In this document: piece by piece, positions 2,226 through 60,774 of the stretch
Numbering within the stretch: position 1 is the stretch's first letter
Layout: every line of letters begins with the position of its first letter
Sequence record: HQ630627.1
Direction: 5' to 3' (one strand)
Source: Pseudomonas phage PhiPA3
DNA length: 64,000 nt
Translations under genes and position numbers: made by a program
The notes under the pieces: generated by a model
Database searches by the model: none
Seen by the model: only the letters and a program-made list of their open reading frames with translations
Told to the model about the DNA's origin: nothing

Positions 2226-2267
2226 ATTATGCCGGATCTTATGATCTTAGAACTTGAGGTATATCTC

Positions 2268-3911
2268 ATGCCCTCAGCAACAGTCCCATTGCCGGACGTA
2301 TATGAAACAATTACCCGTAAGGTGGCTGTTGACGTCGTAAGGCAAGTCGCGCAGTACATGACCTTGCCGGAACAGACTGAAGTCTATTTACCGGGTCGCT
2401 CGGATACCGTTCCTATGAACGATGGCATGTTTGGTAATTGCTGTGATACAGCTAACGCCGTGCATTTCGATCCAGAGGAACGAGTTACTATTACTTACGA
2501 TGAAGTCGCTGAAGAGAACTTTACACTTTCTACAGCTGTAATGAACAACGAGAATTTCCCGGTGTTCTACGACGAAACTCGTGATGTTATTATGCGTCCA
2601 ATTCGTCGCTTCGTTGACTTTCGTATTGACTTTGAATATCAAGCTCCAAACGTAGTATTGGCTCAACGCTGGTTAGACGATCAACGCATTCGTTTAAGTT
2701 CGGGTGTGGGAGATCTGACGATGTCGTTGACCTACCATTACAACGTACCACCCGCTTTATTGGGATTGATGAAGGGTCTGTACGACACCATGCAGAACTC
2801 CTGCTGGCCGACAGAGTGGACCTTCCGCGAATGGATGGAAAAATATTGGGCCCAACCCCAAACCGAGATGACCACTTTGATCGGTACGCACCCCACTCTG
2901 ACCATTTATGAGCGTCAAGTGGATGTAGTGGGTCACTTTGACTTTATCAACTCTCCTGAGACTCCTCAGCAATCTAGTGATAAAGCTGGTGGCTACACAG
3001 TTAACTTCAGTTACATCTGTCGTTACGAGCGTCCAACGCATATTCGGGTTACTTACCCGATGATTATGCATCAATGTCCGATTCCGAAAGTCTTCCGTCC
3101 TAAACCGATTTATGAAAACTACCAGCAAGCTGATCGCAAGGTAACCAATCTACGGGGTTCACTGGAGAAAGCTCTGATTTTGATGCGCAGCCGCGGCGTG
3201 GATTACATCCAACATCCAGATACTGACGATTGGCATACCGATGATAAACCCATTCAACGCTTTACATTTTTTAATGGATTGCTTTGTTTGGATAAAGATG
3301 ATCCCACACAGCTACTGGATCTTTCTAAGCTAGGACGATTCACATTTACTGGTTGGTGGTTAGAGTTCTTCAAACAAGAAGGGGCACACGCAATCGCCGA
3401 TGGTTCGTTCTTTGAGTTTAGACTCTACCAGAACAACCAGAGAATTCGTGTACCTCTAACTATTGATCCGGGTACGTTGATTGTGCGTTCGACAATGCCT
3501 CTGGATCCACATCGGTATTATCACATACAGATCTCATTGGTGAAGAACCTCTACGCTATCAACGATAGATATTGGCGTTGTATTTCTCGTTACCCAACTT
3601 GCTGTTGGCAACTCTTCCATCTCTTTAACCTAGGGATTGGTAAGAGACCAATTGAGCAGATGGAACTTCTTGGTTTGTCTGGTCCTCGTCCTCCCGAAGG
3701 GGATTGTGGTGAGGAAGGTAAGACAGAATACGTGAAGGACATACCACATTTCCCACGCGGGATTGTGAAATGGGGCGATATCGCAGAGGCTCGTGATGAG
3801 CAGGATAAGAACATCATCGGTGGTCCTGGTGAATCGGGTTATGTAAACCAGAACACCTTTGGTCCAACTAATGTTCTATTTGCAAATATCATCTCTGAGC
3901 GTAAAAGTTAA
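2268..3911 (+). CDS. hypothetical protein (547 aa), probably virion-associated
   Basis: Long ORF. I chose the start at ATG 2268 (GAGG about 10 nt upstream), not ATG 2229, because 2229 lies inside the recurrent post-hairpin TTATGCCG element. Confidence 0.5.
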   Translation: MPSATVPLPDVYETITRKVAVDVVRQVAQYMTLPEQTEVYLPGRSDTVPMNDGMFGNCCDTANAVHFDPEERVTITYDEVAEENFTLSTAVMNNENFPVFYDETRDVIMRPIRRFVDFRIDFEYQAPNVVLAQRWLDDQRIRLSSGVGDLTMSLTYHYNVPPALLGLMKGLYDTMQNSCWPTEWTFREWMEKYWAQPQTEMTTLIGTHPTLTIYERQVDVVGHFDFINSPETPQQSSDKAGGYTVNFSYICRYERPTHIRVTYPMIMHQCPIPKVFRPKPIYENYQQADRKVTNLRGSLEKALILMRSRGVDYIQHPDTDDWHTDDKPIQRFTFFNGLLCLDKDDPTQLLDLSKLGRFTFTGWWLEFFKQEGAHAIADGSFFEFRLYQNNQRIRVPLTIDPGTLIVRSTMPLDPHRYYHIQISLVKNLYAINDRYWRCISRYPTCCWQLFHLFNLGIGKRPIEQMELLGLSGPRPPEGDCGEEGKTEYVKDIPHFPRGIVKWGDIAEARDEQDKNIIGGPGESGYVNQNTFGPTNVLFANIISERKS

Positions 3912-3929
3912 TAAGGAATAGGTGATTCA

Positions 3930-5932: not shown

Positions 5933-7307
5933 TAAAACGCTACTCATGCGTGAAGTGAATAATGTTATTCAGTCTGGTGATGGACATTACAACTTCCGCA
6001 TGGAGATAAAGATCCTTGCTAATAAGAAATGGATCACTCCAGTTCGGTTGGATCATTATCGCCTAGTGCGTGACTATTCATCTGGACAAGTGGGTGATGA
6101 TCGTACAGTAGAGTTCCTGATGAACTACGGGGACTTTGCCTACGACATCCTACCTTATCGTGATAACCTCATTGTGGAGTACACTGAAGTTCCGTTACGG
6201 GAAGTAAATTCTGCGCGGGACTGGGACAAGCGTTCGACTACGAAACGCTATCGGGGTATCCTCAACATGAGTGGTCAATCAAACCCTGCGTTATCTTCTA
6301 AGAACTCATTGCTGCAATCACGTGAAGCATTGAATCAGATCTCGATGATCCCCATTCAGATGCAGCTCGTAGATGAATTGACTTACCGTGTTATGATGGC
6401 GTCGTATGGCAACACATTTGTGAACATGACGACTAAAGACATGGTAATCGCATCACATCACGAGGTCTTTGCGGCATTGGGTGGCACGGATGATCAACGT
6501 TTATTGGGTTGGGATATTGCCGATGGCTGGAATCCAGATGTTCATTACCAGATCGGTTTGCCAGATGGTATCCGCTTAGCTGATATCCCTCGATTTCTAC
6601 AGAACGATGAAGGTGGAATTTACCCCACTGGGATGGGTCGATATATTCAGAATCAGATCTTCTACATGTATCCGTTGTTTGATACAACTAGATTCAATAA
6701 GAAGACTAGGGTTCTGAACCTGATCAATATTCCCAGTGACCGTTACGAAGGCGCTGAGAAGACGTATAAGAGCACTGACCGACATGTGACGGTGATAGCC
6801 ACCGGTAATGCATCTTCGCTCGATGACGGGCTTGCTACGGTCTTACAACAGGGTAATGGTGTTCGCTTTGGTAATGCTAACAACCTGTTGACAGATCAAG
6901 CTGTCACCAAAGACAACAAGATGTTAATGGACCGGGCATCTAACTTGTATGAAGTCAATATTGGAAATCTCCAAACTGGCTTTAACAACACCCGATGGGC
7001 AAATGAGCGGGTAACCGCCAACCCTTATAAACAGTATTCGATTATGGCACAACGCCAAGGCCAGCAATTGGATCTGGAATGGGTTAACGGTAATCCCGAT
7101 GAATTGTACCCTGGAATGCCAGTGAAGTTTTTTACCATATCTGGCGACACTGTAAAAATTTACCACGGTACCCTATTAGGTGTAGGTGAACAACGAACCG
7201 CTTCTGATGCGTCTCCAGTAGTCAATCGGCATGTCAGTAAGTGTCAGTTGTCCGTCTTTGTCAACCGGTTTGAAATCGTAGATGACACTATAAGCCCCAC
7301 CCCTTAA
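5922..7307 (+). CDS. hypothetical protein (461 aa)
   Basis: Long ORF overlapping the previous stop. Its stop codon lies in the loop of terminator hairpin 7295-7317. Confidence 0.5.
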   Translation: MSVDKTLLMREVNNVIQSGDGHYNFRMEIKILANKKWITPVRLDHYRLVRDYSSGQVGDDRTVEFLMNYGDFAYDILPYRDNLIVEYTEVPLREVNSARDWDKRSTTKRYRGILNMSGQSNPALSSKNSLLQSREALNQISMIPIQMQLVDELTYRVMMASYGNTFVNMTTKDMVIASHHEVFAALGGTDDQRLLGWDIADGWNPDVHYQIGLPDGIRLADIPRFLQNDEGGIYPTGMGRYIQNQIFYMYPLFDTTRFNKKTRVLNLINIPSDRYEGAEKTYKSTDRHVTVIATGNASSLDDGLATVLQQGNGVRFGNANNLLTDQAVTKDNKMLMDRASNLYEVNIGNLQTGFNNTRWANERVTANPYKQYSIMAQRQGQQLDLEWVNGNPDELYPGMPVKFFTISGDTVKIYHGTLLGVGEQRTASDASPVVNRHVSKCQLSVFVNRFEIVDDTISPTP

Positions 7308-7322
7308 GTGGGGTGGGTTTAT
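7294..7322 (+). terminator. hairpin ccccacccc-ttaa-gtggggtggg + TTTAT
   Basis: A 9-10 bp GC stem followed by a U-rich tract. Confidence 0.6.
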
Positions 7323-7336
7323 ACCAGGTGACCACA

Positions 7337-7768
7337 ATGACAAACATTTATATAGCAATCGACCCGGCGTGGTCCTATGGGTTCCTAAGCGCGATATCTA
7401 ATCACATTACGTTAGATTTTAGCACGCAGAGCCGTCTCTACGAGCACGCGATGGATTTCATTCGTCTACGCCATAACTTCAACTGGAATCATGACGCTAT
7501 TGCTTTTAATACTGGTTATAACAGTATCATGATGGCGTTGCAAGAATATCCAATTGCTACGTCGTTCTTTGAGGGCATGTATCGGCAACTCTTCAATAAT
7601 TACCATCTTGCATTAAATAGCTTGGGTGGAGAGATTGCAAAGATAACAACCATTACCGATAGTGAAGGGCTGATTACCGGCATCGTCTGTCAGGTAGTGG
7701 AAACAATTCCACATATTCAAAGTGTTTTTAACCCTATATCACAGATGGGAATTAACTCCACCTGTTGA
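7337..7768 (+). CDS. hypothetical protein (143 aa)
   Basis: I chose ATG 7337 (AGGTGA 8 nt upstream). The GTG at 7313 reported in the ORF track lies inside the terminator stem. Confidence 0.45.
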   Translation: MTNIYIAIDPAWSYGFLSAISNHITLDFSTQSRLYEHAMDFIRLRHNFNWNHDAIAFNTGYNSIMMALQEYPIATSFFEGMYRQLFNNYHLALNSLGGEIAKITTITDSEGLITGIVCQVVETIPHIQSVFNPISQMGINSTC

Positions 7769-7778
7769 GGTATAAGGG

Positions 7779-7919
7779 ATGCAAAAGGTACAGCAAACTG
7801 AAGAACTGCTTCCTCGTGAACAGAAGCCTCAGGTGCCCAAGAGCCTCATCGACTTACCGCACCTGGTTGTAATCTTCGTGGTGGCTCTTGCGGTCACTAT
7901 CTATCACAACGGCTTTTGA
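7779..7919 (+). CDS. 46-aa single-TM microprotein
   Basis: ATG with an AAGGG ribosome-binding site. It has a hydrophobic C-terminal segment LVVIFVVALAVTIY. It is below the ORF-track size cutoff. Confidence 0.35.
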   Translation: MQKVQQTEELLPREQKPQVPKSLIDLPHLVVIFVVALAVTIYHNGF

Positions 7920-7928
7920 GGTAGCAAT

Positions 7929-8099
7929 ATGTTCAACTTCTGGGATGATTCCAAAACCGAAGCAGAAAACGATCAGGCATCGAAGAAAGCTCGACATAAT
8001 AAGGATATCCTTCAGTTCCTGACCGCAGGCGTGGCGCTGGTGACAGGCGTTATTACCTGTGCTGTAGCGAGCAAAAAGTTGTTTGATGAAATGACTTAA
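7929..8099 (+). CDS. 56-aa single-TM microprotein
   Basis: GAGG ribosome-binding site and a hydrophobic segment FLTAGVALVTGVITCAVA. Confidence 0.35.
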   Translation: MFNFWDDSKTEAENDQASKKARHNKDILQFLTAGVALVTGVITCAVASKKLFDEMT

Positions 8100-8112
8100 T
8101 TTGGCGCTCAAT

Positions 8113-8145
8113 CTAATGAGTGGGTGATGTCCGCTCACTCATTAG
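8113..8145 (+). other. AT-rich 10-bp stem hairpin ctaatgagtg-N13-cactcattag (no U-run)
   Basis: A perfect inverted repeat lies between the microprotein genes and the macrodomain gene. Confidence 0.35.
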
Positions 8146-8167
8146 ACAAGTTTAAGGAGCCATTTAA

Positions 8168-8650
8168 ATGGCTGAATTCATAATCGGTAAGGATATCTTC
8201 CAGGAGCCCGGAGATCTTTACGTCATAACCGTCAACACCGTTGGCGTGATGGGTGCCGGCGTTGCCAAAGCCTTTAGAGAGCGTCACCCTGACCTCTTTC
8301 AAAGGTACAAACATGATTGCAAGATGAAGATCATCCAGATCGGTCATCCTGTCATCTACAAAGGAGATGACAATAAACATTACATGATGTTCCCCACTAA
8401 GGAACGATGGCAAGATCCGTCTCTACCTTCTTACATATCTGCTGGTTTACAGTGGATGGTCGACAATATCGACGAGAATGCAGACGATGATTTCATCGAT
8501 TCCAAGTGGAAGATCGTCATGCCACCCTTAGGGTGTGGACATGGAAAACTACACTTCCCAGATGTCAGGGCAATGATTGAAGAGTTCTCTCAACACATTC
8601 CTAATCAACTGGTTGTGGTCTATCCTCCCTGGATGGAGTCCGTTGAGTAA
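8168..8650 (+). CDS. macrodomain protein, TARG1/DarG-like ADP-ribosyl hydrolase family (160 aa)
   Basis: The motifs VNTVGVMGAGVAKAF and MPPLGCGHGKLHFPDVRAMIEEF match, from memory, the TARG1 motifs MGAGIA..F and MPRIGCGLDRL..V.AMIEE.F. It has an AGGAG ribosome-binding site and sits in the early region. Confidence 0.8.
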   Translation: MAEFIIGKDIFQEPGDLYVITVNTVGVMGAGVAKAFRERHPDLFQRYKHDCKMKIIQIGHPVIYKGDDNKHYMMFPTKERWQDPSLPSYISAGLQWMVDNIDENADDDFIDSKWKIVMPPLGCGHGKLHFPDVRAMIEEFSQHIPNQLVVVYPPWMESVE

Positions 8651-8662
8651 TGCAACATAATG

Positions 8663-8681
8663 CCCCACCTAACGGGTGGGG
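8663..8681 (+). terminator. hairpin ccccacc-taac-gggtgggg followed by ATTATGCCG
   Basis: GC stem after the stop of the macrodomain gene. Confidence 0.6.
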
Positions 8682-8732
8682 ATTATGCCGCTATTGGCTG
8701 AGCAGATTCGTATATTCAAAACATTTTAAACA

Positions 8733-8754
8733 CTATATTACAAATGTGATATTA
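8733..8754 (+). promoter_or_regulatory. early-promoter-like dyad motif CTATATTACAAATGTGATATTA
   Basis: One of four near-identical motifs. Each sits about 40 nt downstream of a terminator and 26-33 nt upstream of an ATG. It resembles the AT-rich TATATTAC-type early promoters of phiKZ-like phages, as I recall them. Confidence 0.45.
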
Positions 8755-8781
8755 GCCTAGTTAATCAACGGAGTAATCCCC

Positions 8782-8889
8782 ATGGGCATTGCTAAGTTCT
8801 GCTTTAAACTCGGTCTGGCAGTCGTGATCATTAACGCAGCCTGGTGGGCCGTTGATACCATCTTCGAAGAGGAAACCACAGATGTCTGA
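8782..8889 (+). CDS. 35-aa TM microprotein
   Basis: GGAG ribosome-binding site and the hydrophobic segment LGLAVVIINAAWWAV. Confidence 0.3.
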   Translation: MGIAKFCFKLGLAVVIINAAWWAVDTIFEEETTDV

Positions 8890-8986
8890 CTACATCAAGT
8901 TCAACCTGAAAGTAGTACTGGGCATAGTAGCCTGTTACTATGCTTTGAAAACCACCAACTTCATCGTAGAAGAAATCATCGGTTAA
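8882..8986 (+). CDS. 34-aa TM microprotein
   Basis: ATGTCTGA stop/start overlap with the upstream microprotein gene, and the hydrophobic segment VVLGIVACYYAL. Confidence 0.3.
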   Translation: MSDYIKFNLKVVLGIVACYYALKTTNFIVEEIIG

Positions 8987-8991
8987 GTGTC

Positions 8992-9321
8992 ATGAACTGG
9001 TACTTCAAATCAGTTCTGGCACTTACAGGGGTTATGACCGTTTTGGGTGCAGGCATAGGCCTTCTCGCCTGGCGACATATCTCTACGATCAACAAATTGT
9101 ATTCCCAAGGTTGGGAGTACCTCAACAAGATCCATGACCAACTTCTGAGTGATGGGTACTACCATCATTCGCACTGGCAACGCCGCAAGAGTCTCTTGTG
9201 GCAAGAAGCAGCAGCTGGAATCGAAGAGATTTTAGCTGCGTACCCCGCGAGCATAAAAGACCATGTTCGCGAACACCTACGCTACGATTCACGTCGGATC
9301 GTTAACTGTGATACTCACTGA
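8992..9321 (+). CDS. hypothetical membrane protein (109 aa)
   Basis: ORF with an N-terminal TM segment. Confidence 0.45.
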   Translation: MNWYFKSVLALTGVMTVLGAGIGLLAWRHISTINKLYSQGWEYLNKIHDQLLSDGYYHHSHWQRRKSLLWQEAAAGIEEILAAYPASIKDHVREHLRYDSRRIVNCDTH

Positions 9322-9336
9322 AAAGGAAACTGCACC

Positions 9337-9492
9337 ATGAAACAAGCTCTCATCATCGCTGGTATCGTTACCTCCATCGGCGCTGCTGCCTTCGCCGGCT
9401 ACAAGTACTTCACCGGCAACGACGCCGACTCGGCGGGCGACACCCCGGCAGCTCCCGAAGCCGCCACTGAAGAAACCCCCGCTACTGAATAA
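9337..9492 (+). CDS. 51-aa TM microprotein with acidic tail
   Basis: AAAAGGAAAC ribosome-binding site. The N-terminal segment ALIIAGIVTSIGAAAFAGY is hydrophobic. Confidence 0.35.
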   Translation: MKQALIIAGIVTSIGAAAFAGYKYFTGNDADSAGDTPAAPEAATEETPATE

Positions 9493-9535
9493 GTAGCGGT
9501 TCACCTTCCACACCATTTCAAGTAAGGAAAGCAAT

Positions 9536-9838
9536 ATGTTCGGTTCTCTCGTAAAAGGTGCTCTGCTGATGGTCGTCGGAGCGGCTGGTCTGACTGCCAT
9601 GATGGTGTGGTCGGATGACGCTATCTCGAATGAGCTCCTGCGTGAGTTCAACGATTACGTCAAGTCTCTACCCGAAGATCTCGTCGGTGAAGAGCGTAAC
9701 AAAACCATCCATAGCTATGTCGAGCGTCGCATGAAAGAAATCCGCAGCGCTCTCAGCATGGCTCGTAACCTGTGTGAATTGGAGGAAAAGGTACAAGCCT
9801 TCCTCCAGAAGAACATCACTCCGGTTCCGGCAGAGTAA
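9536..9838 (+). CDS. hypothetical protein (100 aa) with N-terminal TM
   Basis: ORF with a ribosome-binding site. Confidence 0.45.
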   Translation: MFGSLVKGALLMVVGAAGLTAMMVWSDDAISNELLREFNDYVKSLPEDLVGEERNKTIHSYVERRMKEIRSALSMARNLCELEEKVQAFLQKNITPVPAE

Positions 9839-9845
9839 CCCCTAG

Positions 9846-9866
9846 GGGGCCTTCGGGCCCCCATCT
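9846..9866 (+). terminator. hairpin gggggcc-ttcg-ggccccc
   Basis: GC stem with a UUCG loop. Confidence 0.55.
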
Positions 9867-9892
9867 CCTTTGTAATGTATCTTTTCTGAAGG

Positions 9893-9914
9893 CTATATTA
9901 CAAAAGTGATATTA
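9893..9914 (+). promoter_or_regulatory. early-promoter-like dyad motif CTATATTACAAAAGTGATATTA
   Basis: Second copy of the motif, about 30 nt after terminator 9846 and 25 nt before ATG 9939. Confidence 0.45.
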
Positions 9915-9938
9915 CCCAATTCAATCGAGGATTTAATC

Positions 9939-10091
9939 ATGAAAGCAATTGCCCTGGTATTCGTAGGTATGGTTCTTGGCGGCCTGTTCGTTAACGCTAA
10001 GTACGATACCCCCAAAGCATCTGAAGAGCAAGTTGTACTCGGTACCCGGATCGGTTCTCTGGGTCAAGAGATCTTGGTTGTTAAGAACTAA
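9939..10091 (+). CDS. 50-aa TM microprotein
   Basis: I preferred ATG 9939 over 9906, because the 9906 start overlaps the promoter motif. It has a GAGG ribosome-binding site and the hydrophobic segment IALVFVGMVLGGLFV. Confidence 0.35.
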   Translation: MKAIALVFVGMVLGGLFVNAKYDTPKASEEQVVLGTRIGSLGQEILVVKN

Positions 10092-10130
10092 GTAATACCC
10101 CCTTCAAATAAACAATAGGAAAATACAATC

Positions 10131-37356: not shown

Positions 37357-40059
37357 ATGGCTCAACGTCAAGTTAATGAGGTGGCGTATCCGAAGCTACA
37401 GGCGATCCGCTTGGGATCAACTGCAACGCCGACGAACGCACTCCTCAACCTTCTGCGTAAGGATCCAAACGCATTGGGTACGGAAGCCGCGAAACCTCGG
37501 GTTAACGTAAATCGTTTCACCCTGGACAAGGTTTCGCGCGACACCTCACAAGAGATCATCGATAGCGACTCTATTATGCAGTTGCTCCCTGACCTTGAGT
37601 TGGTGGAGACTGTATATGTAGGTTCGATTATCGACCCGAAGGCATTGTCAGATACTGATTTGACCTTCTCTGTCGATCAGGCTATTTTCGACAGTGAACT
37701 CTCCAAACACCTGCTTGAGCCTGTTGAGAAGTATTTTAAACGAGACTATAAGATTGACGAGCGCTTGGACCTGATCCTACGCGATTGTTTGTTCCGTAAA
37801 GGCGCTTCGATCCTAGCCGTTCTTCCCGAGAACGTACTAGATAATCTTATTAATGGTCGTCGTCAGGTTTCTATGGAGACCTTCGAACAGATCCGTAATC
37901 GCGTAGAGAATACTACTACTGATAACCTCGGGTTTTTGGGGCATCCCACTGATCAAACTATCTCGTTGGAGGGTTACGCTAATAACGCTACCACCAACCG
38001 GATACGCGGTGACAAACATCTTACCGTCACCGATAACTTCAACGTTTTGAAAGTCCCTGGGATGTCCCGCCGTGTACGCGAGATGTCAATCGCGAAGAAA
38101 CTTCGCGGTAACCAGGTTTCTTTGGAAGCTGAGGTACATAACTTCGGCAACGATGAAATCGAGAAGCTGTATCAGAGTCGCTTAGGGGGTACGGAACATA
38201 CACAAGTTGTAACGTCTCCTCGTTACATGGACCGTCCTTCGGTTGGCCATCCGCTGATCCTACCGTTACCAATGGAATCGGTCGTACCGGTGTTTGTTCA
38301 AGGTCGTCCTCATGAACATATTGGTTATTTCCTGTTGGTGGACCAACATGGTTATCCTATTTCGAAAGATTCGACCCGCGACTTCTATGGTGAACTGCAA
38401 GCTGGTTGGAAAGGTGGTAAGAACTCAGATAACAACTCCGAAGTTCTGCGACTGACCCGCGAAGCATTGGGTAACAATACTAAGCGACAAGATTTTGAAA
38501 TTGATGAGATCCAACAAACGTACAACGCTATTATCGTGAACGATCTGAACAACCGTCTGCGTAATGGCATGTACGACCAAGAACTGGAAATTGGGATCAC
38601 TGAAGAAATTCAGCGGATCATGCTCTATCGTTCTTGGAAAGCTAAGAATACTCAACTGGTATTCATTCCAGCAGAACTACTCACCTACATTGCTTTTGAC
38701 TATAATGTCAATGGTATCGGTGAGACGTTGCTGTCTCGGTCAAAAATGATCGCCACTATGCGTTCGACTCTGCTCATGGCCGAGACCATCGGCGGGATGC
38801 GTAACGCGGTAGGTCGTAAACGAGTGAATATCACACTCGATCCAGATGACGTTGATCCGGAACAAACGATCTCAAATATTCAATCCAACATCATGGAATC
38901 TGCACATCGTAGTTTCCCGTTGGCCGCTCCAGACCCTACTCAGGCAATGGACCACCTAATCCGTTCTGGCTTTGATTTTGCCATCAATACCAATGGTGCT
39001 GATTATGCAGAGACCAAAGTTGAATACGATGATTACAACACATCGGTAAACGCAGGTAATCCAGACCTGCAAGACCGTCTGCGTCGTATGCATATTTCGG
39101 GTATGGGTGTACCACCTGAGAAAGTGGATCCGATGTCTTCACCGGACTTCGCAACATCGGTGGTACAAAACGACCTCGTAATGTCCCGTCGTGTACGCGA
39201 TAAACAGAAGACATTCTGTCAACATCTGTCTAAGTTCATCCGTTCGTTCGTTACTCACAGTTCCATCATCCGTGAAGAATTGAACAAGATTGTAACAGAC
39301 AATGCTAAGATGTTGATTTCCCCAGAATTCAAACACATGACCGTACAGGAAGTGGTGGATGAATTCATCCTGTCGATCGAAGTTTCCCTACCGACTCCTG
39401 ACAACACGCAACATGAGCGTCAGTCTGAAGCATTGGAGAACTATGATCGCCTGCTGACTACTGCATTGGAATCGTATATCACTCCGGAACTATTCCCGGA
39501 TGAACTGACTCAGATTCCTGGATTGACAGACCAAGTCATGAATCATGTGAAAGCAATGTTCAAACGCCAGTTCATGGCACAGAACAATATTCTGCCGGAA
39601 CTGAATATCTTGACTGAGATGGACGGTGATAAACCGGCATTTAGTCTGTTGGACTTCGCAGCACTGCAACAAGGTACAATGGCGAAAGCCTTCTTGGCCT
39701 TTGCCAAGCATACACAGGAATCCAAACTCCATCTGGAGAAACTCTATAAGAACGTTATCGAAGGTAACGACGAGAACGGAATTACTCCTGGTGGCGGTGG
39801 TGATTTTGGGGGTGGCAATGACTTCGGTGGTGGAGACGAGTTCTCTAACATCGATGAAGGTGGTGGTGATATGGACCTGGGTGTCGATGGTGGCACTGGG
39901 GACGGCAGCGAGCAATCCGATGATTTCGGTGCTCCTGAATCGGATGTACTTGATGAGGGTACAGAAACCGATGAAGACAAACCACAAACCGATGGACTCG
40001 AAGACCCAATGGCTGAGGCGGAAGCTGAAGAAAACGGGAAAGACGAGGACAAGTTGTAA
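37357..40059 (+). CDS. candidate portal protein (900 aa) with Gly/Asp-rich acidic C-terminal tail
   Basis: The assignment rests on size and position: it lies between the major capsid protein block and the fibre paralog array, as the phiKZ portal gp129 lies before gp131-135. No sequence-level proof is possible by eye. Confidence 0.35.
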   Translation: MAQRQVNEVAYPKLQAIRLGSTATPTNALLNLLRKDPNALGTEAAKPRVNVNRFTLDKVSRDTSQEIIDSDSIMQLLPDLELVETVYVGSIIDPKALSDTDLTFSVDQAIFDSELSKHLLEPVEKYFKRDYKIDERLDLILRDCLFRKGASILAVLPENVLDNLINGRRQVSMETFEQIRNRVENTTTDNLGFLGHPTDQTISLEGYANNATTNRIRGDKHLTVTDNFNVLKVPGMSRRVREMSIAKKLRGNQVSLEAEVHNFGNDEIEKLYQSRLGGTEHTQVVTSPRYMDRPSVGHPLILPLPMESVVPVFVQGRPHEHIGYFLLVDQHGYPISKDSTRDFYGELQAGWKGGKNSDNNSEVLRLTREALGNNTKRQDFEIDEIQQTYNAIIVNDLNNRLRNGMYDQELEIGITEEIQRIMLYRSWKAKNTQLVFIPAELLTYIAFDYNVNGIGETLLSRSKMIATMRSTLLMAETIGGMRNAVGRKRVNITLDPDDVDPEQTISNIQSNIMESAHRSFPLAAPDPTQAMDHLIRSGFDFAINTNGADYAETKVEYDDYNTSVNAGNPDLQDRLRRMHISGMGVPPEKVDPMSSPDFATSVVQNDLVMSRRVRDKQKTFCQHLSKFIRSFVTHSSIIREELNKIVTDNAKMLISPEFKHMTVQEVVDEFILSIEVSLPTPDNTQHERQSEALENYDRLLTTALESYITPELFPDELTQIPGLTDQVMNHVKAMFKRQFMAQNNILPELNILTEMDGDKPAFSLLDFAALQQGTMAKAFLAFAKHTQESKLHLEKLYKNVIEGNDENGITPGGGGDFGGGNDFGGGDEFSNIDEGGGDMDLGVDGGTGDGSEQSDDFGAPESDVLDEGTETDEDKPQTDGLEDPMAEAEAEENGKDEDKL

Positions 40060-54757: not shown

Positions 54758-57493
54758 ATGGCTGCTAATCCCAATCCGGGAATGATTTCCCAAATGCCCT
54801 CCCTCAACATCGTAACTGGTGAAGAGTTCCTGGAGGTCATCAAGCGTGAGACGGATGGTTCGTACAAGAACTATCGTCTCATGGTATCTAAGATCCGCAC
54901 AAATGAAGGCCTTTCCGCCTATGAAGTTGCCGTTAAGAACGGCTTCGTTGGTACAGAACAGGAATGGCTGGATTCCCTTCAGGGTAAGTCGATCTATCAA
55001 CTGGCTCTGGAACACGGCTTTGTCGGTTCTGAACAAGAGTACCTGGATTCGCTTAAAGGCGAAGCTGGTAAATCTGCTTATCAGACCGCAGTGGACGAAG
55101 GTTACACTGGTACGGAAGCTCAATGGCTCCAAACCCTCGTAGGTCAATCGGCTTACGACATTGCCGTCGAACAAGGGTTCGTTGGTGATAAAGACGCATG
55201 GCTGGCAAGCCTGAAAGGCGAGAAAGGTGACAAGGGCGATGATGCAGATCTCACTGCTGAGAAGCTGCAAGAACTCCTGAACCTGCATGGTTACACCATC
55301 GAACAATCTCTGCGTGTACTGGGTGATAACTCTGGTGTTATTGCTAACGCAGGCTTCTTCAACTTCCTGTTCCTGTTTGACAAGCGTTTGAATAACCGGG
55401 CTAACGACGATGTCGATAAAGTACCGCAGCGCATGGTCGAAATGGGTCGCATGGAAGCAGAAGGTTATTCCTATTGGAAAAACGAACCTGCTAGTACAGA
55501 TGACCCGTCAGGTCCTCTGCCGGCTGTACCAGATTCTGAACTGCGTCTGTTTGATGACGGTAAGTTCCAAATCGGTAGCCTTAACGATTACATTGAATTC
55601 GGCGATGGCTCTAAGGTAAGTATCGTTGTTGGCGGTTCTGCTGTTACTTACGATCTGGCTGAGGCAACTCAAGGTAAAGACGGTAAGTCTGCTTATGAAA
55701 TTGCAGTAGAACACGGCTATACGGGTACCGAGCAAGAATGGCTTACGTCTCTGCGTGGTCCGGCTGGCGCGTCCGCTTATGACGTTGCGGTAGAGCAGGG
55801 GTACACCGGTACCGAAACTGAGTGGGTAGCTAGCCTGCAAGGCACCGATGGTAAATCGGCATATGAGTCAGCAGTTGATGGCGGCTTCACGGGTACTGAA
55901 GAAGAATTCAATACTTCTCTTGCCCAACCAAAAGGAAAGAGTGGCGGTGTATTCATTACCGACATCACTCCCCAATCGGTAAGTGAAAACGTTGGTAACA
56001 AAGTCATGTCGGCCGATGGCTTCTCATTGGTCAGTGCGTCGTCGACTACTAAAGCCGTTACTGTGGCTGTGACTGCAATCACCGGACATACTAACTATCG
56101 TCCAGTGGTTAAGGTAAACGGCGTGACGGTTACCCTGACTGCTAAAGCAGATGCACCTCTGTGGACTGGTACAGCTAATATCACTTTGGCTGATCCTGCT
56201 GAAGGTGAAACCAATGTGGTTATCACCGCAGAACACGAAGATGGCGCTTCGGCTACCAGTACTGTAGCAATGGATACCCCGGCTGTAGTTCTGACTGGCG
56301 TATTCACCGGTAACTATCCGGGTACTCAGACTGAGCTTAAAGCTGGCGATACCATGTCGATTGCTATCACTACCGATCAACCGGTGGTGGCTTATGAGAT
56401 CGAGAACTCGGGTGCATTTGCTGCCAAGAGCGGCACTCTGACATCCGGTACTACGCACACCATCACGGGTGTAGCTATCGCTGATCGCGGTAATACCGCC
56501 GCTATGCATGGTTTCCGTGTACGTGTACGTAAGGCCTCTGGTTCTTGGTCGAACTGGTTCGATAGCTCTACCGTAGGTTCCACTGAGAAGACCCATGTCG
56601 TTAAGTTGAACAACCTGAAGCCAACCGTTACTATTGGTGCAGTAACGTATCCGGCTGGTCAAGGCGCGATTAAGGGTGGTGAATCGGCCCAAGTAGCTAA
56701 CACCCTGGCCAACTTCGACACAGTGTCTTATACCTCAGGTAATGGACAACTGACGGTAGCTAACCCGACTCAATCCGAAGCCAATAAGGTAGTTACTTAT
56801 CTGGCTGGCACATATAACGATTCCACTAACAACTTCACCATCACTGCCAATCGTGCAGCCAACGGTTCTAGCACTACAGCTAGTACTGTGGTGAAGATTG
56901 CTAACGTGGATGTTGCTGCTACTATTACTTACGCAGCACCGCGTCTGCGTTCTGGTGGTAATAATGGTACAGTTGCCCAGCAGCACACTATCACACTCAC
57001 CGCTACTCAAGCACTGACCGATCCGCCGAGCATGAACGTGCCGTCGGGTACCTGGGAAACAGCTGCGTGGCAACCGGACGCCGCTCGTAAAGTCTGGACC
57101 CGTAAACTCATTGTCCATGACAATGATTCCAAAGGTCAGTTTGATTACAACAACGTCGTCCTGAAAGGCCTGAGTGGTCGTGTAGTCTCTACTCTGGCAG
57201 GTGGCGGCACCTATGTAATCGGTGGCTTCGTATTCCGTACTCTGACTGTACCGGCCTATCCGAACCGTTCCACTGAAATTGGTACCGTCGTTGCCGACAC
57301 CAGCAAACTGCGTTGCTCTAACCTCTCGAAGGGAGCTAGTGGTAGTCTGAACTTTACTTATCAGGCAGCTACTACTGACGCGGTTGATCGTTACTCGATC
57401 ACTGGTGGTGACACTTGGTATAACTGCGACGCTGCTAACGCCGTATCTAACACATCCGGTCTGATGCAGATTGAACTTGAGGAAGTCGTATAA
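54758..57493 (+). CDS. tail fibre protein (911 aa; track ORF from TTG 54725 = 922 aa) with at least 7 SAY..AV..GF.GTE.EWL.SL.G repeats
   Basis: Repeats typical of phage tail fibres plus a short GEKGDKGDD tract. I preferred ATG 54758, which has an AAAGGAAG ribosome-binding site. Confidence 0.55.
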   Translation: MAANPNPGMISQMPSLNIVTGEEFLEVIKRETDGSYKNYRLMVSKIRTNEGLSAYEVAVKNGFVGTEQEWLDSLQGKSIYQLALEHGFVGSEQEYLDSLKGEAGKSAYQTAVDEGYTGTEAQWLQTLVGQSAYDIAVEQGFVGDKDAWLASLKGEKGDKGDDADLTAEKLQELLNLHGYTIEQSLRVLGDNSGVIANAGFFNFLFLFDKRLNNRANDDVDKVPQRMVEMGRMEAEGYSYWKNEPASTDDPSGPLPAVPDSELRLFDDGKFQIGSLNDYIEFGDGSKVSIVVGGSAVTYDLAEATQGKDGKSAYEIAVEHGYTGTEQEWLTSLRGPAGASAYDVAVEQGYTGTETEWVASLQGTDGKSAYESAVDGGFTGTEEEFNTSLAQPKGKSGGVFITDITPQSVSENVGNKVMSADGFSLVSASSTTKAVTVAVTAITGHTNYRPVVKVNGVTVTLTAKADAPLWTGTANITLADPAEGETNVVITAEHEDGASATSTVAMDTPAVVLTGVFTGNYPGTQTELKAGDTMSIAITTDQPVVAYEIENSGAFAAKSGTLTSGTTHTITGVAIADRGNTAAMHGFRVRVRKASGSWSNWFDSSTVGSTEKTHVVKLNNLKPTVTIGAVTYPAGQGAIKGGESAQVANTLANFDTVSYTSGNGQLTVANPTQSEANKVVTYLAGTYNDSTNNFTITANRAANGSSTTASTVVKIANVDVAATITYAAPRLRSGGNNGTVAQQHTITLTATQALTDPPSMNVPSGTWETAAWQPDAARKVWTRKLIVHDNDSKGQFDYNNVVLKGLSGRVVSTLAGGGTYVIGGFVFRTLTVPAYPNRSTEIGTVVADTSKLRCSNLSKGASGSLNFTYQAATTDAVDRYSITGGDTWYNCDAANAVSNTSGLMQIELEEVV

Positions 57494-60400
57494 TGGCATC
57501 TCCATTTGAGAACTTCGTTAACGGCGAATTGCCGAAGCGTATCGGTACCGAAGACGATCCTCTCAGTGTGCAACAAGGTCATGTCCCGGTAGCTACCGGG
57601 ACTGGCCTTAGCATTGAGTTTAAGGACCCCCAGGAGATTCCTGGTCTGAAAGGTGACGATGGTGCACCGGGTAAATCCGCTTATGAAATCGCCGTTGAAA
57701 GTGGTTTCCAGGGTACTGAACCCGAGTGGGTTGAATCCCTTAAAGGCGATAAAGGGGAAGACGGCACCCAGGGTCAACCTGGTCCGCCTCTGAAGATTAT
57801 CGCAGCTGTAACGCAAGATGACTTTGAAGCGAACATCGAACCGGAAGACACCTGGGATATTGGTGATTCGTGGTGGGTAATGTCGCAAACTGCAACGGTT
57901 CTGAAGATTTGGGGTTACCCGGATCCAGAAGTTCCTGGTCAGAAAGGCCAATGGATTACCACTGACGACATGCGTGGTCCAGCGGGTACTGGCCTGGTTA
58001 TTCGTGGTGAATGGCCTGACAACACCGAATTACCGACCCCTGCTCTGAAAGGTGATACCTACGGTTGGAAACACGCTCTGTGGACTTACATGCTCCGTGC
58101 GGGTATGGAAGATCTCCCAGAGAACTATGCCTATATCCAAGTCGTTCCTGAAGGCCCGGTAGGTCCCAAAGGTGATCAGGGTATTCAAGGCCTGAAAGGT
58201 GATAAGGGCGATAAAGGGGATACGGGTGCAGCAGCACGTCCGTTCTCAGTGGTTGATCAGCTCGCCGACCCATCAGAACTCCCCGATGTTGGTGTATCTA
58301 AACCTGAAGAAGCTTACTCTGTAACCGTAGATGGCGTTGCCCACCTGTACATCTTCTCCGTTACCAATAACCAGTGGATGGACTTGGGTGTTTGGCAGGG
58401 TCCACGCGGTGAAGCCGGCCTGAAAGGCGATAAGGGTGACAAAGGCGATAAAGGTGATTCCGGTGTAGCCGGTACCGATGGTCGTAACGTTACTATCGTT
58501 CAGGTCTTTGCAACCTATGATCTTCTGATTAGTAACCTGATTGGATTGGAACAGGACAAAGCGTACGCTGTTCAAGAAACCAACACAGTTTACTACGCTC
58601 CGGTTACCAGCCCGACAGAAGAACAACTCCTGAACCTGGGTTCCTTCCGTGGACCTCAAGGGGTGAAGGGCGATAAGGGTGACAAAGGCGATAAGGGAGA
58701 CAAAGGTGAGAAAGGTGATACCGGCGACGGTGGTAAGAACCTGACTATCCTGGGTACTCAAGCTGACCTCACCGCGATCGAAGCTCTGCCGACTCCAGTA
58801 GAACAAGATGCGTGGGTTGCTCTTGACAATCTTCATCTTTACATGTACATTGATGGTGCATGGGTTGACCTTGGTACGCACCAAGGGGCTAAAGGTGATA
58901 AGGGCGACAAGGGGGATAAGGGTGATCAAGGTATTCAGGGCCTGAAAGGCGATAAGGGTGACAAAGGTGACACCGGCGAACAAGGTAGATCCTTGGACAT
59001 TATCGCCATCGTTGATGCTGTAGATCAACTTCCTGCGCCAGCTCCTTCTAACCAATACAAAACCGCCATCGTTCGTGGCGGCAACATGTACTACAACCAA
59101 GACGGTTCCGCTTGGGTAGACATGGGTCCTGCTGGTGTTAAAGGTGACAAAGGCGATAACGGTGTTGGCGTTCGTATTCAGGGTGAAGTGGATACAGCTG
59201 CCGATCTGCCGGTACTGACTGATCCTGCTAACGATGAACTGGTGGATGGTGACGCTTTCATCGCTACCTACCAGAAAGATGGCGCTGACGCCAAAGGCCT
59301 CTACATCGTCAACCGCTCCACCAATACCTACGATGGTCCGTTCGACATCCAAGGTCCCGAAGGTCAACAAGGTCCTAAGGGTGACACCGGTCCTCGTGGT
59401 GACGTAGGTCAAGGGATCAAGATTGTTGGTGATTACCCTGACTACGCTGCACTGACCGCCGCACACCCGACGTCAAATATTGGCGACGCCTACTCAGTGG
59501 GTGCCGTTGGTTCCAAATCGCTGTACGTGTGGGCAGTTGATGGCGCTGACGCTACTGAAAAATACCTGAACCTGGGTTCTTTCACCGTAGGTGTGAAGGG
59601 TGACAAAGGCGATAAGGGTGACACCGGCGATACGGGTCCTCGTGGTCCAACCGGTCAGAAAGGCCCTGCTGGTTCCCGGTGGGTTATTCTTCCGGCTAAC
59701 ATGACTACTCCTAACAACACAGTCGGTGTTGAGAACGACTGGTGTCTGGATAAGTCAGGTCAGGTATGGTACCGCGATAGTTCTGGCTGGAAAGAGTTCA
59801 TCCAACTTATGGATGTACCGGTTCCGGAAGTAGATACTGCTGGTCAGAATACCCACATGGTCCGTTACCAAATGGGCTGGGTACCTCTGCCGGGTGGTGT
59901 TGTAGCTAACCCTGTGGATGGCGTACAGTATGTTCAAGAAGGCCAACCTGACGGCTCTACTCAATGGGTAGAACTGCAACTGCCGGGTGAACCGATCAAC
60001 GACATTCCAGGTGATGATCCTGATGCTGCCAAAGCCCATATCCGTGTACGCGGTGAATGGAAACTGGGTGCACCGACTGTCGTAGGTCTGGATTCGACCA
60101 AAACCTACCTGATGAAAACTACAGGTTGGGTACTGGCGGATGTCTACACCGAAGCGCCTAAAGCAGCTGGTGTGTACTATGGCCGTGTGAACGGTGCTTG
60201 GGGTGAGGTTCCTGGTGAGGCACCTACTGACTCTAAGCTGTATGGTCGTCAAGGCAAAGCTTGGGTAGAAGTACCTGCTGCCATCATCTCTTCCGATGCC
60301 CCCGATGCTAAGACCTATGCCCGTAAACAAGGCTCTTGGGTTGAGATCAAAGTCATCGCAGAACCGACCAACGATGGTAAGACCTATGGTCGTACTACGA

Positions 60401-60774
60401 CCGCAGGTAACGTATCGAGCTGGGTGGAAATCACCAAGACCTTTGATACTTACAACCTGAAGTCTTCCACCGTGACAGCTAACGTTACGGTTGACTACGC
60501 TACGCAGCAATGCTACGTGGTTGACGCAAGCGCATCGCGTCAGGTAACACTGAACGCAGGTCCGACTGGCAGGATGGTTACTTCGGTAATCGTTCTCAAA
60601 GGTAACGCTGCGACCAACAAACCGACATTCGTCGCTGGTACTGGTGCACCCACCATTGCCTTCAACGACGGCGTGACTGCTGCTGACATCAAATACGGTG
60701 CCAATAAGACAGTCATGGCGGCTCTGTGGGATGGTGAAACTACGTGGATCATCGCACGCGGTGCTGCGTATTAA
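57493..60774 (+). CDS. collagen-like tail fibre protein (1093 aa)
   Basis: Many G-x-y tracts (KGDKGDKGDKGDKGEKGDTGDGG and similar, at least 8 blocks), an N-terminal anchor motif FVNGELPKRIGTEDDPL, and a C-terminal domain homologous to the C-terminus of 62420..63619. Confidence 0.6.
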   Translation: MASPFENFVNGELPKRIGTEDDPLSVQQGHVPVATGTGLSIEFKDPQEIPGLKGDDGAPGKSAYEIAVESGFQGTEPEWVESLKGDKGEDGTQGQPGPPLKIIAAVTQDDFEANIEPEDTWDIGDSWWVMSQTATVLKIWGYPDPEVPGQKGQWITTDDMRGPAGTGLVIRGEWPDNTELPTPALKGDTYGWKHALWTYMLRAGMEDLPENYAYIQVVPEGPVGPKGDQGIQGLKGDKGDKGDTGAAARPFSVVDQLADPSELPDVGVSKPEEAYSVTVDGVAHLYIFSVTNNQWMDLGVWQGPRGEAGLKGDKGDKGDKGDSGVAGTDGRNVTIVQVFATYDLLISNLIGLEQDKAYAVQETNTVYYAPVTSPTEEQLLNLGSFRGPQGVKGDKGDKGDKGDKGEKGDTGDGGKNLTILGTQADLTAIEALPTPVEQDAWVALDNLHLYMYIDGAWVDLGTHQGAKGDKGDKGDKGDQGIQGLKGDKGDKGDTGEQGRSLDIIAIVDAVDQLPAPAPSNQYKTAIVRGGNMYYNQDGSAWVDMGPAGVKGDKGDNGVGVRIQGEVDTAADLPVLTDPANDELVDGDAFIATYQKDGADAKGLYIVNRSTNTYDGPFDIQGPEGQQGPKGDTGPRGDVGQGIKIVGDYPDYAALTAAHPTSNIGDAYSVGAVGSKSLYVWAVDGADATEKYLNLGSFTVGVKGDKGDKGDTGDTGPRGPTGQKGPAGSRWVILPANMTTPNNTVGVENDWCLDKSGQVWYRDSSGWKEFIQLMDVPVPEVDTAGQNTHMVRYQMGWVPLPGGVVANPVDGVQYVQEGQPDGSTQWVELQLPGEPINDIPGDDPDAAKAHIRVRGEWKLGAPTVVGLDSTKTYLMKTTGWVLADVYTEAPKAAGVYYGRVNGAWGEVPGEAPTDSKLYGRQGKAWVEVPAAIISSDAPDAKTYARKQGSWVEIKVIAEPTNDGKTYGRTTTAGNVSSWVEITKTFDTYNLKSSTVTANVTVDYATQQCYVVDASASRQVTLNAGPTGRMVTSVIVLKGNAATNKPTFVAGTGAPTIAFNDGVTAADIKYGANKTVMAALWDGETTWIIARGAAY

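What the first reader, a model, noticed from the sequence alone, without database searches (positions are those of the whole stretch)
8168..8650. Early-region TARG1/DarG-type macrodomain: candidate counter-defence against ADP-ribosylating systems (e.g. DarTG)
The 160-aa protein matches the macrodomain fold motifs of the TARG1/DarG subfamily, as I recall them. VNTVGVMGAGVAKAF corresponds to the diphosphate-binding loop MGAGIA..F. MPPLGCGHGKLHFPDVRAMIEEF corresponds to MPRIGCGLDRL..V.AMIEE.F. A Lys in FPTKERW sits at the position of the TARG1 catalytic Lys. DarG macrodomains remove ADP-ribose from thymidines on ssDNA placed there by the DarT toxin. A phage copy expressed early, in the early island and right after an early-type terminator and microprotein genes, would plausibly protect phage DNA from DarT or from other ADP-ribosyltransferase defences. 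The position of the TARG1 catalytic Asp appears to be Gly here (GCGHGKL), so the mechanism may differ.
Basis: partly seen in the sequence, partly recalled or inferred. Interest (0 to 1): 0.75.

Follow-up and report, generated by a model that had tools for sequence, protein, structure and literature searches.

The report
Known phage anti-DarTG macrodomain (AdfM)

Summary
The 160-aa ORF at 8168..8650 (+) is real and is a macrodomain (Pfam Macro, above threshold). Its closest relatives by sequence and by predicted fold are the DarG antitoxin macrodomains; TARG1 comes second. The DarG catalytic residues are present and invariant among homologs (N23, K78). The Gly at the TARG1-Asp position is the DarG norm, not a peculiarity of this protein.

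The protein is 100% identical to PhiPA3 gp108 (YP_009217188.1). A published Cas13 guide against that gene matches window 8168-8198 exactly. Morgan et al. (Cell Rep 2026, PMC13309987) named this family AdfM. For PhiKZ gp104 (63% identical) they showed removal of DarT2 ADP-ribose from DNA. For PhiPA3 gp108 itself they showed localisation to the phage nucleus and loss of titre on DarTG2 hosts when the gene is deleted.

The functional interpretation is therefore correct and already known. Two side claims are not supported:
- Early expression: the phiKZ ortholog is reported as late, and the protein works inside the phage nucleus.
- A possibly different mechanism.

It is a stand-alone macrodomain, with no DarG C-terminal domain and no DarT neighbour. 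One minor lead remains: a conserved hairpin lies directly upstream of the gene.

The parts
8168..8650 (+). adfM coding sequence (PhiPA3 gp108): 160-aa stand-alone DarG2-like macrodomain
   Evidence: ORF. Pfam Macro; DarG models. 100% identical to YP_009217188.1, PhiPA3 gp108. 63% identical to PhiKZ gp104/AdfM over the full length. Model pLDDT 95; DarG is the best fold match.
8168..8198 (-). Exact match to the published LbuCas13a guide used to select the PhiPA3 gp108 (AdfM) deletion
   Evidence: Guide sequence from PMC13309987 methods. Single exact match in the window; 0 expected by chance.
8234..8236 (+). Codon for Asn23, equivalent to T. aquaticus DarG N22 and PhiKZ AdfM N23 (N23A lowers activity)
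   Evidence: Alignment to 5M31. Invariant in 27 homologs. N23A result and the N22/K80 active-site labels from PMC13309987.
8246..8266 (+). VMGAGVA, the first Gly-rich ADP-ribose (phosphate) binding loop of the macrodomain
   Evidence: M28, G29, G31 and A33 are invariant. Aligned to VMGKGVA of DarG and MGAGIA of TARG1. The role of the loop rests on established macrodomain knowledge.
8399..8401 (+). Codon for Lys78, equivalent to the DarG catalytic K80 and TARG1 K84
   Evidence: FPTKERW aligned to FPTKKHW of 5M31/5M3I and to ITKK of TARG1. Invariant.
8396..8452 (+). aa 77-95, the stretch homologous to the nuclear-import recognition region mapped on PhiKZ gp104 (inferred for PhiPA3)
   Evidence: PMC11087766 mapped aa 77-95 of PhiKZ gp104 as the determinant of import specificity, using gp104/gp108 chimeras. 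The alignment has no gaps in this region.
8528..8551 (+). LGCGHGKL, the second Gly-rich loop; G126 occupies the TARG1 Asp125 position, as in DarGs
   Evidence: alignments; G122, G126, L128 invariant.
8154..8159 (+). AAGGAG ribosome-binding site, 8 nt before the ATG
   Evidence: Read directly from the sequence. GGAGCC is conserved at this position in phiKZ, Psa21, PS119XW, D6 and RVTF4.
8112..8146 (+). 15-bp hairpin between the micro-ORFs and adfM; conserved in position, with outer stem AATCTrATGAG/CTCATTAGA, in related phages; function unknown (terminator/attenuator of the upstream unit, or 5' leader element)
   Evidence: MFE -26.6 kcal/mol, z -4.8. Only one copy in the window. A hairpin is present upstream of the ortholog in all 9 Pseudomonas chimalliviruses examined.
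8656..8690 (+). GC-rich hairpin plus TTATGCCG: the phage's recurrent terminator module, closing the adfM unit
   Evidence: Fold z -3.3. The same module occurs at 2227, 26646, 33813 (+) and 19237, 13116 (-). It is conserved after the ortholog in 201phi2-1, Psa21, RVTF4, D6 and Viktualia.
7735..7742 (+). TATATCAC, a one-mismatch variant of the early-type promoter core, 433 nt upstream of adfM and ahead of the micro-ORFs
   Evidence: The corresponding TATATTAC lies ahead of the micro-ORFs in phiKZ, 201phi2-1, Phabio and Viktualia. The assignment as 'early' rests on my recollection of the phiKZ logo and on the description of an AT-rich motif near -10 in PMC7598289.
7779..8099 (+). Two micro-ORFs (46 aa, 7779..7919; 56 aa, 7929..8099) preceding adfM; counterparts of the small genes flanking AdfM in phiKZ (p32/gp103), which were deletable there
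   Evidence: phrog_34982 hit for the 46-aa ORF. phiKZ layout. Non-essential flanking genes in PMC13309987.
8734..8751 (+). cTATATTAC-N4-GTGATA early-type promoter motif downstream of adfM, driving the next run of small ORFs
   Evidence: Conserved at the same place in phiKZ, 201phi2-1, Psa21 and Viktualia.

Best explanation
The ORF is adfM (anti-DarT factor, macro), gene 108 of the nucleus-forming Pseudomonas jumbo phage PhiPA3. It encodes a stand-alone DarG2-type macrodomain.

Proposed sequence of events:
1. The protein is made in the cytoplasm.
2. It is recognised through a surface patch (about aa 77-95) by the phage's PicA import machinery and concentrated inside the phage nucleus.
3. There it hydrolyses the ADP-ribose that the host DarT2 toxin attaches to thymines (TNTC motifs) in single-stranded phage DNA. 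It uses the DarG-type active site (Asn23, Lys78 and two Gly-rich loops).
4. This keeps phage DNA replicable and, above all, packageable into capsids.

It has only the enzymatic half of the bacterial antitoxin. It lacks the DarT-binding domain.

What is shown and what is inferred:
- Shown here: identity, family, fold and conserved catalytic residues.
- Shown in the literature for this exact gene: nuclear localisation, and DarTG2 sensitivity of the deletion mutant.
- Shown only for the 63%-identical PhiKZ ortholog: in vitro hydrolysis, the N23A effect, the packaging block and PicA dependence.
- Inferred: the enzymatic step and the import patch for PhiPA3.
For: - **Identity.** 100% to PhiPA3 gp108, YP_009217188.1. 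The neighbouring virion protein is also an exact PhiPA3 match. The published gp108 Cas13 guide matches 8168-8198.
- **Family.** Pfam Macro above cut-off; PADLOC DarG 2.2e-38; NCBIfam DarG 1.3e-39 over model positions 7-149; PDB DarG macrodomains E ~1e-22.
- **Fold.** pLDDT 95. The top four Foldseek hits are all DarG macrodomains, TM ~0.8.
- **Active site.** N23, K78 and the Gly loops are invariant in 27 homologs and align to DarG N22/K80.
- **Orthology.** 63% identical to PhiKZ gp104 end to end. Synteny downstream of the gp98-gp101 virion block is conserved in phiKZ, 201phi2-1 and Psa21.
- **Experiments in PMC13309987.** AdfM removes DarT2 ADP-ribose from DNA. It rescues DarT2 toxicity. PhiPA3 AdfM-GFP is nuclear. 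The PhiPA3 AdfM mutant loses titre and 15- to 80-fold of its progeny on DarTG2 hosts.
- **Import.** gp104/gp108 import specificity and PicA dependence are described in PMC11087766.
Against: - Enzymatic activity was assayed with the PhiKZ protein, not the PhiPA3 protein.
- Activity inside the nucleus could not be measured directly, as the authors themselves note.
- The ASO knock-down of PhiKZ gp104 gave only a weak phenotype on a host without DarTG. This fits a conditional counter-defence gene, but does not exclude other substrates.
- The protein scores below the NCBIfam DarG equivalog cut-off (136 against 250 bits) because half of the model is absent.
Confidence: 0.94

Rival explanations
1. 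The macrodomain is an early protein that acts in the cytoplasm or on incoming DNA, before the phage nucleus exists, to shield the genome from DarT or other ADP-ribosyltransferases.
For: - The gene sits among short ORFs punctuated by early-type TATATTAC motifs (7735 variant, 8734, 9894).
- No other recognisable promoter lies between the 7735 motif and the ATG, so read-through of the 8112-8146 hairpin could give early transcripts.
- Plasmid-expressed gp104-GFP is already nuclear by 10 min.
Against: - PMC13309987 states that PhiKZ AdfM is expressed late.
- It shows that PhiPA3 AdfM localises to the nucleus.
- Protection depends on the nuclear concentration of AdfM, and the DarT2 block is at late DNA packaging.
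- A 15-bp hairpin separates the gene from the upstream early-type motif.
- phiKZ late promoters are only a TATG core and cannot be excluded by sequence.
Confidence: 0.08
2. A general TARG1/MacroD-like hydrolase whose main substrates are ADP-ribosylated proteins, RNA, or O-acetyl-ADP-ribose / ADP-ribose-1''-phosphate. The PHROG label 'phosphatase' points this way. DNA de-ADP-ribosylation would be incidental.
For: - phrog_335 is annotated 'phosphatase'.
- TARG1 and Poa1p appear among the fold matches.
- Macrodomains are common in jumbo phages, with varied proposed roles (PMC9503650).
Against: - DarG macrodomains are far closer than TARG1 (1e-22 against 0.02 by sequence; 1e-15 against 1e-9 by fold).
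- The TARG1 catalytic Asp is absent.
- The only phenotypes reported are specific to DarTG2, and DNA ADP-ribose rises in the mutant.
- The 'phosphatase' label is a legacy name for Appr-1-p-processing domains (my knowledge).
Confidence: 0.04
3. A non-catalytic ADP-ribose reader, or a direct DarT inhibitor that works by binding rather than by hydrolysis.
For: Some macrodomains only bind ADP-ribose (general knowledge). Full DarG also neutralises DarT by binding, through its C-terminal domain.
Against: - The catalytic N23 and K78 are invariant.
- The DarT-binding C-terminal domain is absent.
- PhiKZ AdfM turns over substrate in vitro, and N23A impairs this.
Confidence: 0.01

Closest known systems
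AdfM (anti-DarT factor macro) of chimalliviruses: PhiKZ gp104, PhiPA3 gp108, Goslar gp83, Asesino gp217 (Morgan et al., Cell Rep 2026, PMC13309987)
   Same: It is this protein. The window ORF is 100% identical to PhiPA3 gp108 and 63% identical to PhiKZ gp104. Length, synteny and catalytic residues are the same.
   Different: Nothing at the protein level. In vitro enzymology was done on the PhiKZ ortholog only.
DarG2 antitoxin macrodomain (T. aquaticus 5M31/5M3E, M. tuberculosis 5M3I, Thermosipho DarTG 7OMU)
   Same: Closest solved relatives by sequence (E ~1e-22, 31-34% identity) and by fold (TM ~0.8). The N22/K80 equivalents and the Gly-rich loops are shared, with Gly at the TARG1-Asp position. 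The reaction is the same: removal of ADP-ribose from thymine in ssDNA.
   Different: Only the N-terminal half of DarG is present (model positions 7-149 of 329-338). There is no DarT-binding C-terminal domain and no adjacent DarT gene. It is encoded by a phage and is imported into a phage nucleus.
Human TARG1 / OARD1 (C6orf130; 4J5R, 4J5S)
   Same: Same macrodomain subclass, with the catalytic Lys aligned (K84 to K78) and similar GCG..L and AMIEE motifs. It is the second-best fold group.
   Different: Weak sequence match (E ~0.02, 21% identity). The catalytic Asp125 is replaced by Gly126. TARG1 acts mainly on protein Glu-linked ADP-ribose (established knowledge).
AdfN (NADAR-domain anti-DarT1 factor of T4-like phages) and AdfA/AdfB (direct DarT inhibitors)
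   Same: Same biological role: phage counter-defence against DarTG. AdfN, like AdfM, works enzymatically by removing ADP-ribose from DNA.
   Different: Unrelated folds. AdfN targets DarT1 guanine adducts. AdfA and AdfB inhibit DarT by binding.

Membership tests
Macro domain (Pfam PF01661) | Profile match above the curated gathering score | tested here: met
   37.7 bits against a cut-off of 22, E 2.2e-9; residues 21-135 cover profile positions 3-116 of 118.
Macro domain (Pfam PF01661) | Three-layer alpha/beta/alpha macrodomain fold | tested here: met
   AlphaFold model pLDDT 95, pTM 0.90. 210 PDB matches at E<=1e-3; all of the top 18 are macrodomains.
DarG-type macrodomain (catalytic half of DarG2) | Closer to DarG macrodomains than to any other macrodomain class | tested here: met
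   PDB sequence search: DarG 1e-22 against TARG1 0.02. Foldseek: DarG 1e-15 against TARG1 1e-9. PADLOC DarG 2.2e-38.
DarG-type macrodomain (catalytic half of DarG2) | Active-site Asn (Taq N22) and Lys (Taq K80) conserved | tested here: met
   N23 and K78 align to them and are invariant in 27 homologs. Residue identities are from PMC13309987.
DarG2 antitoxin (NCBIfam NF048014 equivalog; full-length protein of a DarTG operon) | Full-length match including the C-terminal DarT-binding domain | tested here: not met
   The 160-aa protein covers only model positions 7-149 of 338. Score 136 bits against the equivalog cut-off of 250. Same picture with PADLOC: 8-146 of 329.
DarG2 antitoxin (NCBIfam NF048014 equivalog; full-length protein of a DarTG operon) | Encoded next to a DarT (DUF4433) toxin gene | tested here: not met
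   No Pfam or PADLOC hit of that kind among the flanking ORFs scanned between 5922 and 16580. The neighbours are virion proteins and small ORFs of unknown function.
AdfM (chimallivirus anti-DarT factor macro) | Orthology to PhiKZ gp104 / PhiPA3 gp108 | tested here: met
   100% identical to PhiPA3 gp108. 63% identical to PhiKZ gp104 over 160 aa. Conserved synteny. The published guide RNA matches.
AdfM (chimallivirus anti-DarT factor macro) | Removes DarT2-placed ADP-ribose from DNA and protects the phage from DarTG2 | not testable with these tools
   Published: in vitro for PhiKZ AdfM; genetically for both PhiKZ and PhiPA3 deletion mutants (PMC13309987).
AdfM (chimallivirus anti-DarT factor macro) | Imported into the phage nucleus | not testable with these tools
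   Published: sfGFP-tagged PhiPA3 AdfM is nuclear. PicA dependence and the aa 77-95 recognition patch were mapped on PhiKZ gp104 with gp108 chimeras.
TARG1/OARD1 | Catalytic dyad Lys84 + Asp125 | tested here: not met
   The Lys is present (K78), but the Asp125 position is Gly126. Sequence E-value is only 0.017.

The most novel reading that the evidence does not exclude
The one element not described in the papers read here is the 15-bp hairpin at 8112-8146. It lies directly upstream of adfM and is conserved in place and in outer-stem sequence across Pseudomonas chimalliviruses.

It might be a conditional terminator or a 5'-leader switch that decides whether transcripts from the upstream early-type promoter read into adfM. 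That would set when the counter-defence enzyme is made.

Alternatively, PhiPA3 AdfM may have a wider substrate range than DarT2 adducts.
Probability: 0.12. Interest if true: 0.35.

Novelty: already known. Interest (0 to 1): 0.1.

Why it matters
The biology is of real interest. It shows that the phage nucleus is a leaky shield that has to be backed up by an imported DNA-repair-like enzyme, and it is the first macrodomain anti-DarT factor. All of this was published in 2026 for this exact gene (PMC13309987), and the protein had served as a model nuclear-import cargo since 2024 (PMC11087766).

For the scan, the value is as a positive control. Nothing here opens a new question beyond the minor regulatory hairpin.

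Tried and rejected
- **Megablast of window 7300-10500 against the phage collection:** no match. This briefly suggested a new phage lineage. Exact protein look-ups showed the window is PhiPA3, whose DNA is simply not in that collection.
- **The look-up of encoding contigs for the protein:** not on record.
- **Ceyssens et al. 2014**, the source of the "late" timing: not held.
- **phiKZ TSS/TTS supplementary tables of Putzeys 2024:** not held.
- **Wicke 2020, Gerovac 2024, Fossati 2023 and the transposon-mutagenesis preprint:** no mention of gp104. Timing therefore rests on one secondary statement.
- **RNAalifold on nine upstream regions:** The single-sequence folds do show a hairpin in each.
- **Rfam scan of 7600-8900:** nothing.
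- **The conserved giant-phage sRNA from the 201phi2-1 paper:** it belongs to another locus, upstream of the gp182 homolog.
- **TATATTAC alone:** not significantly enriched in the window (4 found against 1.5 expected). Only the extended motif and its conservation across phages make it credible.
- **Sigma-70 promoter scan:** at background level, as expected for a phage that does not use host RNAP.
- **Considered and rejected:** full DarG antitoxin (fails on length and on DarT neighbour); TARG1 family member (fails on the Asp).

Full report
**Observation**

The ORF exists exactly as described: 8168..8650 on the + strand, ATG start, 160 aa. An AAGGAG ribosome-binding site lies 8 nt upstream.

The macrodomain assignment is not a chance resemblance:
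- Pfam Macro (PF01661) scores 37.7 bits against a gathering score of 22.
- The PADLOC DarG model gives E 2.2e-38.
- NCBIfam antitoxin_DarG gives E 1.3e-39.
- A phmmer search of all PDB sequences ranks the DarG macrodomains first: 5M3I at 1.8e-22, 5M31/5M3E at 6.2e-22, and the Thermosipho DarTG fusion 7OMU at 4.6e-15. Human TARG1 is far behind at E ~0.02.

**Structure and active site**

An AlphaFold2 model built on an alignment of 27 homologs is very confident (mean pLDDT 95, pTM 0.90). Foldseek against the PDB returns the four DarG macrodomain entries first (E 1.8e-15 to 1.8e-13, TM ~0.8). TARG1 follows (E ~1e-9), then Poa1p and the viral macrodomains.

In the HMMER alignments, Asn23 lies in the TVNTVGVMG segment opposite T. 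aquaticus DarG N22. Lys78 (FPTKERW) lies opposite DarG K80 (FPTKKHW) and TARG1 K84. The AdfM paper labels N22 and K80 as the DarG2 active-site residues. N23, K78 and the glycines of both loops (G29, G31, G122, G126) are invariant in the 27-sequence alignment.

All three DarG structures also have Gly there (GAGNG, GVGNG, GCGLG), and G126 is invariant. This marks the DarG type and is not a hint of a new mechanism.

**Identity of the gene and the genome**

- A tblastn search of phage genomes finds homologs in 257 records. The best (63-68% identity) are in phiKZ-like, 201phi2-1-like and related jumbo phages.
- Synteny is conserved. The homologs of the phiKZ gp98-gp101 virion block lie upstream, a few tiny ORFs follow, and then comes the macrodomain.
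- The large protein database returns a 100% identical, full-length hit: PhiPA3 'Uncharacterized protein 108', from a 309,208-bp contig.
- An exact look-up gives accessions AEH03532.1 / YP_009217188.1. The upstream 461-aa protein is an exact match to a PhiPA3 virion structural protein.
- The LbuCas13a guide published for 'PhiPA3 gp108' is the exact reverse complement of window 8168-8198.

The window is therefore PhiPA3 DNA. The absence of a megablast hit only means that this genome is missing from that collection.

**What is already known**

[quoted passage not shown] Their alignment explicitly includes PhiPA3 gp108 (YP_009217188.1). They report:
- AdfM from Asesino, PhiKZ and PhiPA3 localises to the phage nucleus.
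- Purified PhiKZ AdfM removes ADP-ribose from a DarT2-modified TNTC oligonucleotide, and N23A lowers this activity.
- PhiKZ AdfM rescues E. coli from DarT2 toxicity.
- AdfM deletions in PhiKZ, and an AdfM mutant of PhiPA3, lose titre and give 15- to 80-fold fewer progeny on hosts expressing either of two DarTG2 systems.
- Phage DNA carries more ADP-ribose in the mutant.
- The main block in PhiKZ is at DNA packaging.
- Protection depends on how much DarT2 and AdfM are in the nucleus.

Earlier, Morgan et al., PNAS 2024 (PMC11087766), used PhiKZ gp104 and PhiPA3 gp108 chimeras to map a surface patch (aa 77-95 of gp104) that determines PicA-dependent, phage-specific import. The window protein aligns to gp104 without gaps through this region, at 63% identity overall.

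An ASO screen found only a mild phenotype for PhiKZ gp104 on a laboratory host. That is what one expects of a conditional counter-defence gene.

**Mechanism, with its basis**

Shown here:
- The protein is a DarG-type macrodomain with an intact DarG active site.
- It is stand-alone. It covers only positions ~7-149 of the ~330-residue DarG models and scores below the NCBIfam equivalog cut-off (136 against 250 bits).
- No DarT-like or other defence protein is encoded nearby.

Shown in the literature for this very gene: nuclear localisation, and DarTG2 sensitivity when the gene is mutated.

Shown only for the PhiKZ ortholog, and inferred for PhiPA3: in vitro hydrolysis, the role of N23, the packaging block, and the import patch.

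The best explanation is therefore as follows. AdfM is made in the cytoplasm and imported via PicA. Inside the phage nucleus it strips DarT2-placed ADP-ribose from thymines of single-stranded phage DNA.

**The 'early region' claim**

This part is not supported. The AdfM paper says that PhiKZ AdfM is expressed late, citing Ceyssens 2014. I could not read the primary source or any TSS table. Four other phiKZ omics papers do not mention gp104.

The local layout, from upstream to downstream, is:
1. A one-mismatch variant of the early-type core (TATATCAC, 7735).
2. Two micro-ORFs (7779..7919 and 7929..8099).
3. A 15-bp hairpin (8112-8146; -26.6 kcal/mol, z -4.8).
4. The ribosome-binding site and adfM.
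5. A GC hairpin followed by TTATGCCG (8656-8690; z -3.3).
6. A clear cTATATTAC-N4-GTGATA motif at 8734 that heads the next run of small ORFs.

This order is conserved in phiKZ, 201phi2-1, Psa21 and other relatives.

The element after the gene is the phage's recurrent terminator module, found at six places in the window. It is not an 'early-type' terminator. The hairpin before the gene occurs only once in the window.

phiKZ late promoters consist of little more than TATG at the start site (PMC7598289), so they cannot be ruled in or out by sequence. Early transcription by read-through remains possible. I give it about 8%.

**Comparison and novelty**

- The protein is a member of the AdfM family. 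It is in fact one of the two founding Pseudomonas examples.
- It works like the catalytic half of DarG2.
- It is not a full DarG antitoxin: two defining features were tested and not met.
- It is not a TARG1 family member: the Asp of the catalytic dyad is absent.
- AdfN, AdfA and AdfB are functional analogues with other folds or other mechanisms.

The finding is already known.

**Side observation**

The hairpin directly upstream of adfM is present in all nine Pseudomonas chimalliviruses examined. The outer stem is conserved (AATCTrATGAG / CTCATTAGA in five of them) and the inner stems differ. A formal covariation test failed for alignment reasons, and Rfam has nothing there. It may simply terminate the upstream micro-ORF unit, or it may tune adfM expression. 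This is the only loose end.

Noticed in passing
window 8112-8146 (+); also L003 4453-4500, L002 5945-5990, L004, L006 upstream of the ortholog: A 15-bp hairpin (-26.6 kcal/mol, z -4.8) lies 21 nt before the adfM start codon. It occurs once in the window but is conserved in position in nine Pseudomonas chimalliviruses. The outer stem AATCTrATGAG/CTCATTAGA is shared by five of them and the inner stems vary. No U-tract follows it, and there is no Rfam match. It may be an attenuator or a 5'-leader element.
   Followed up: partly
window 2227, 8683, 26646, 33813 (+); 19237, 13116 (-): A recurrent module of a GC-rich hairpin immediately followed by TTATGCCG, apparently the phage's general terminator motif. 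It contains TATG, the core of phiKZ late promoters. At 2227 its ATG is the start codon of the 560-aa ORF 2229..3911 (PMC7598289).
   Followed up: partly
window 8734-8751, 9894-9911, 26682-26699 (+); variants at 7735 and 33040: Extended early-type promoter motif cTATATTAC-N4-GTGATA in intergenic positions ahead of small ORFs. The copy after adfM is conserved in phiKZ, 201phi2-1, Psa21 and Viktualia. The bare octamer is not statistically enriched on its own: 4 found against 1.5 expected.
   Followed up: partly
window 8782-10091 (+): A run of very small ORFs (35-109 aa), several with hydrophobic, transmembrane-like stretches, downstream of adfM. None has a Pfam match; one (9536..9838) matches phrog_25105 of unknown function.
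   Followed up: no
window 2229-7768 (+): A block of homologs of phiKZ gp98-gp102 lies directly upstream of the small-ORF region. The PhiPA3, 201phi2-1 and Psa21 records annotate members of this block as virion structural proteins (phrog_3289, 3013, 5833, 3245, 14431). A late structural operon therefore abuts the adfM neighbourhood.
   Followed up: partly
whole window: The PhiPA3 genome is absent from the 'phages' BLAST collection (no megablast hit), and the gene is absent from the contig index. The proteins are nevertheless in NCBI. Two large ORF products (37357..40059 and 57493..60774, as I delimited them) had no exact match in the protein collection. This is probably a start-codon choice and was not examined.
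   Followed up: no
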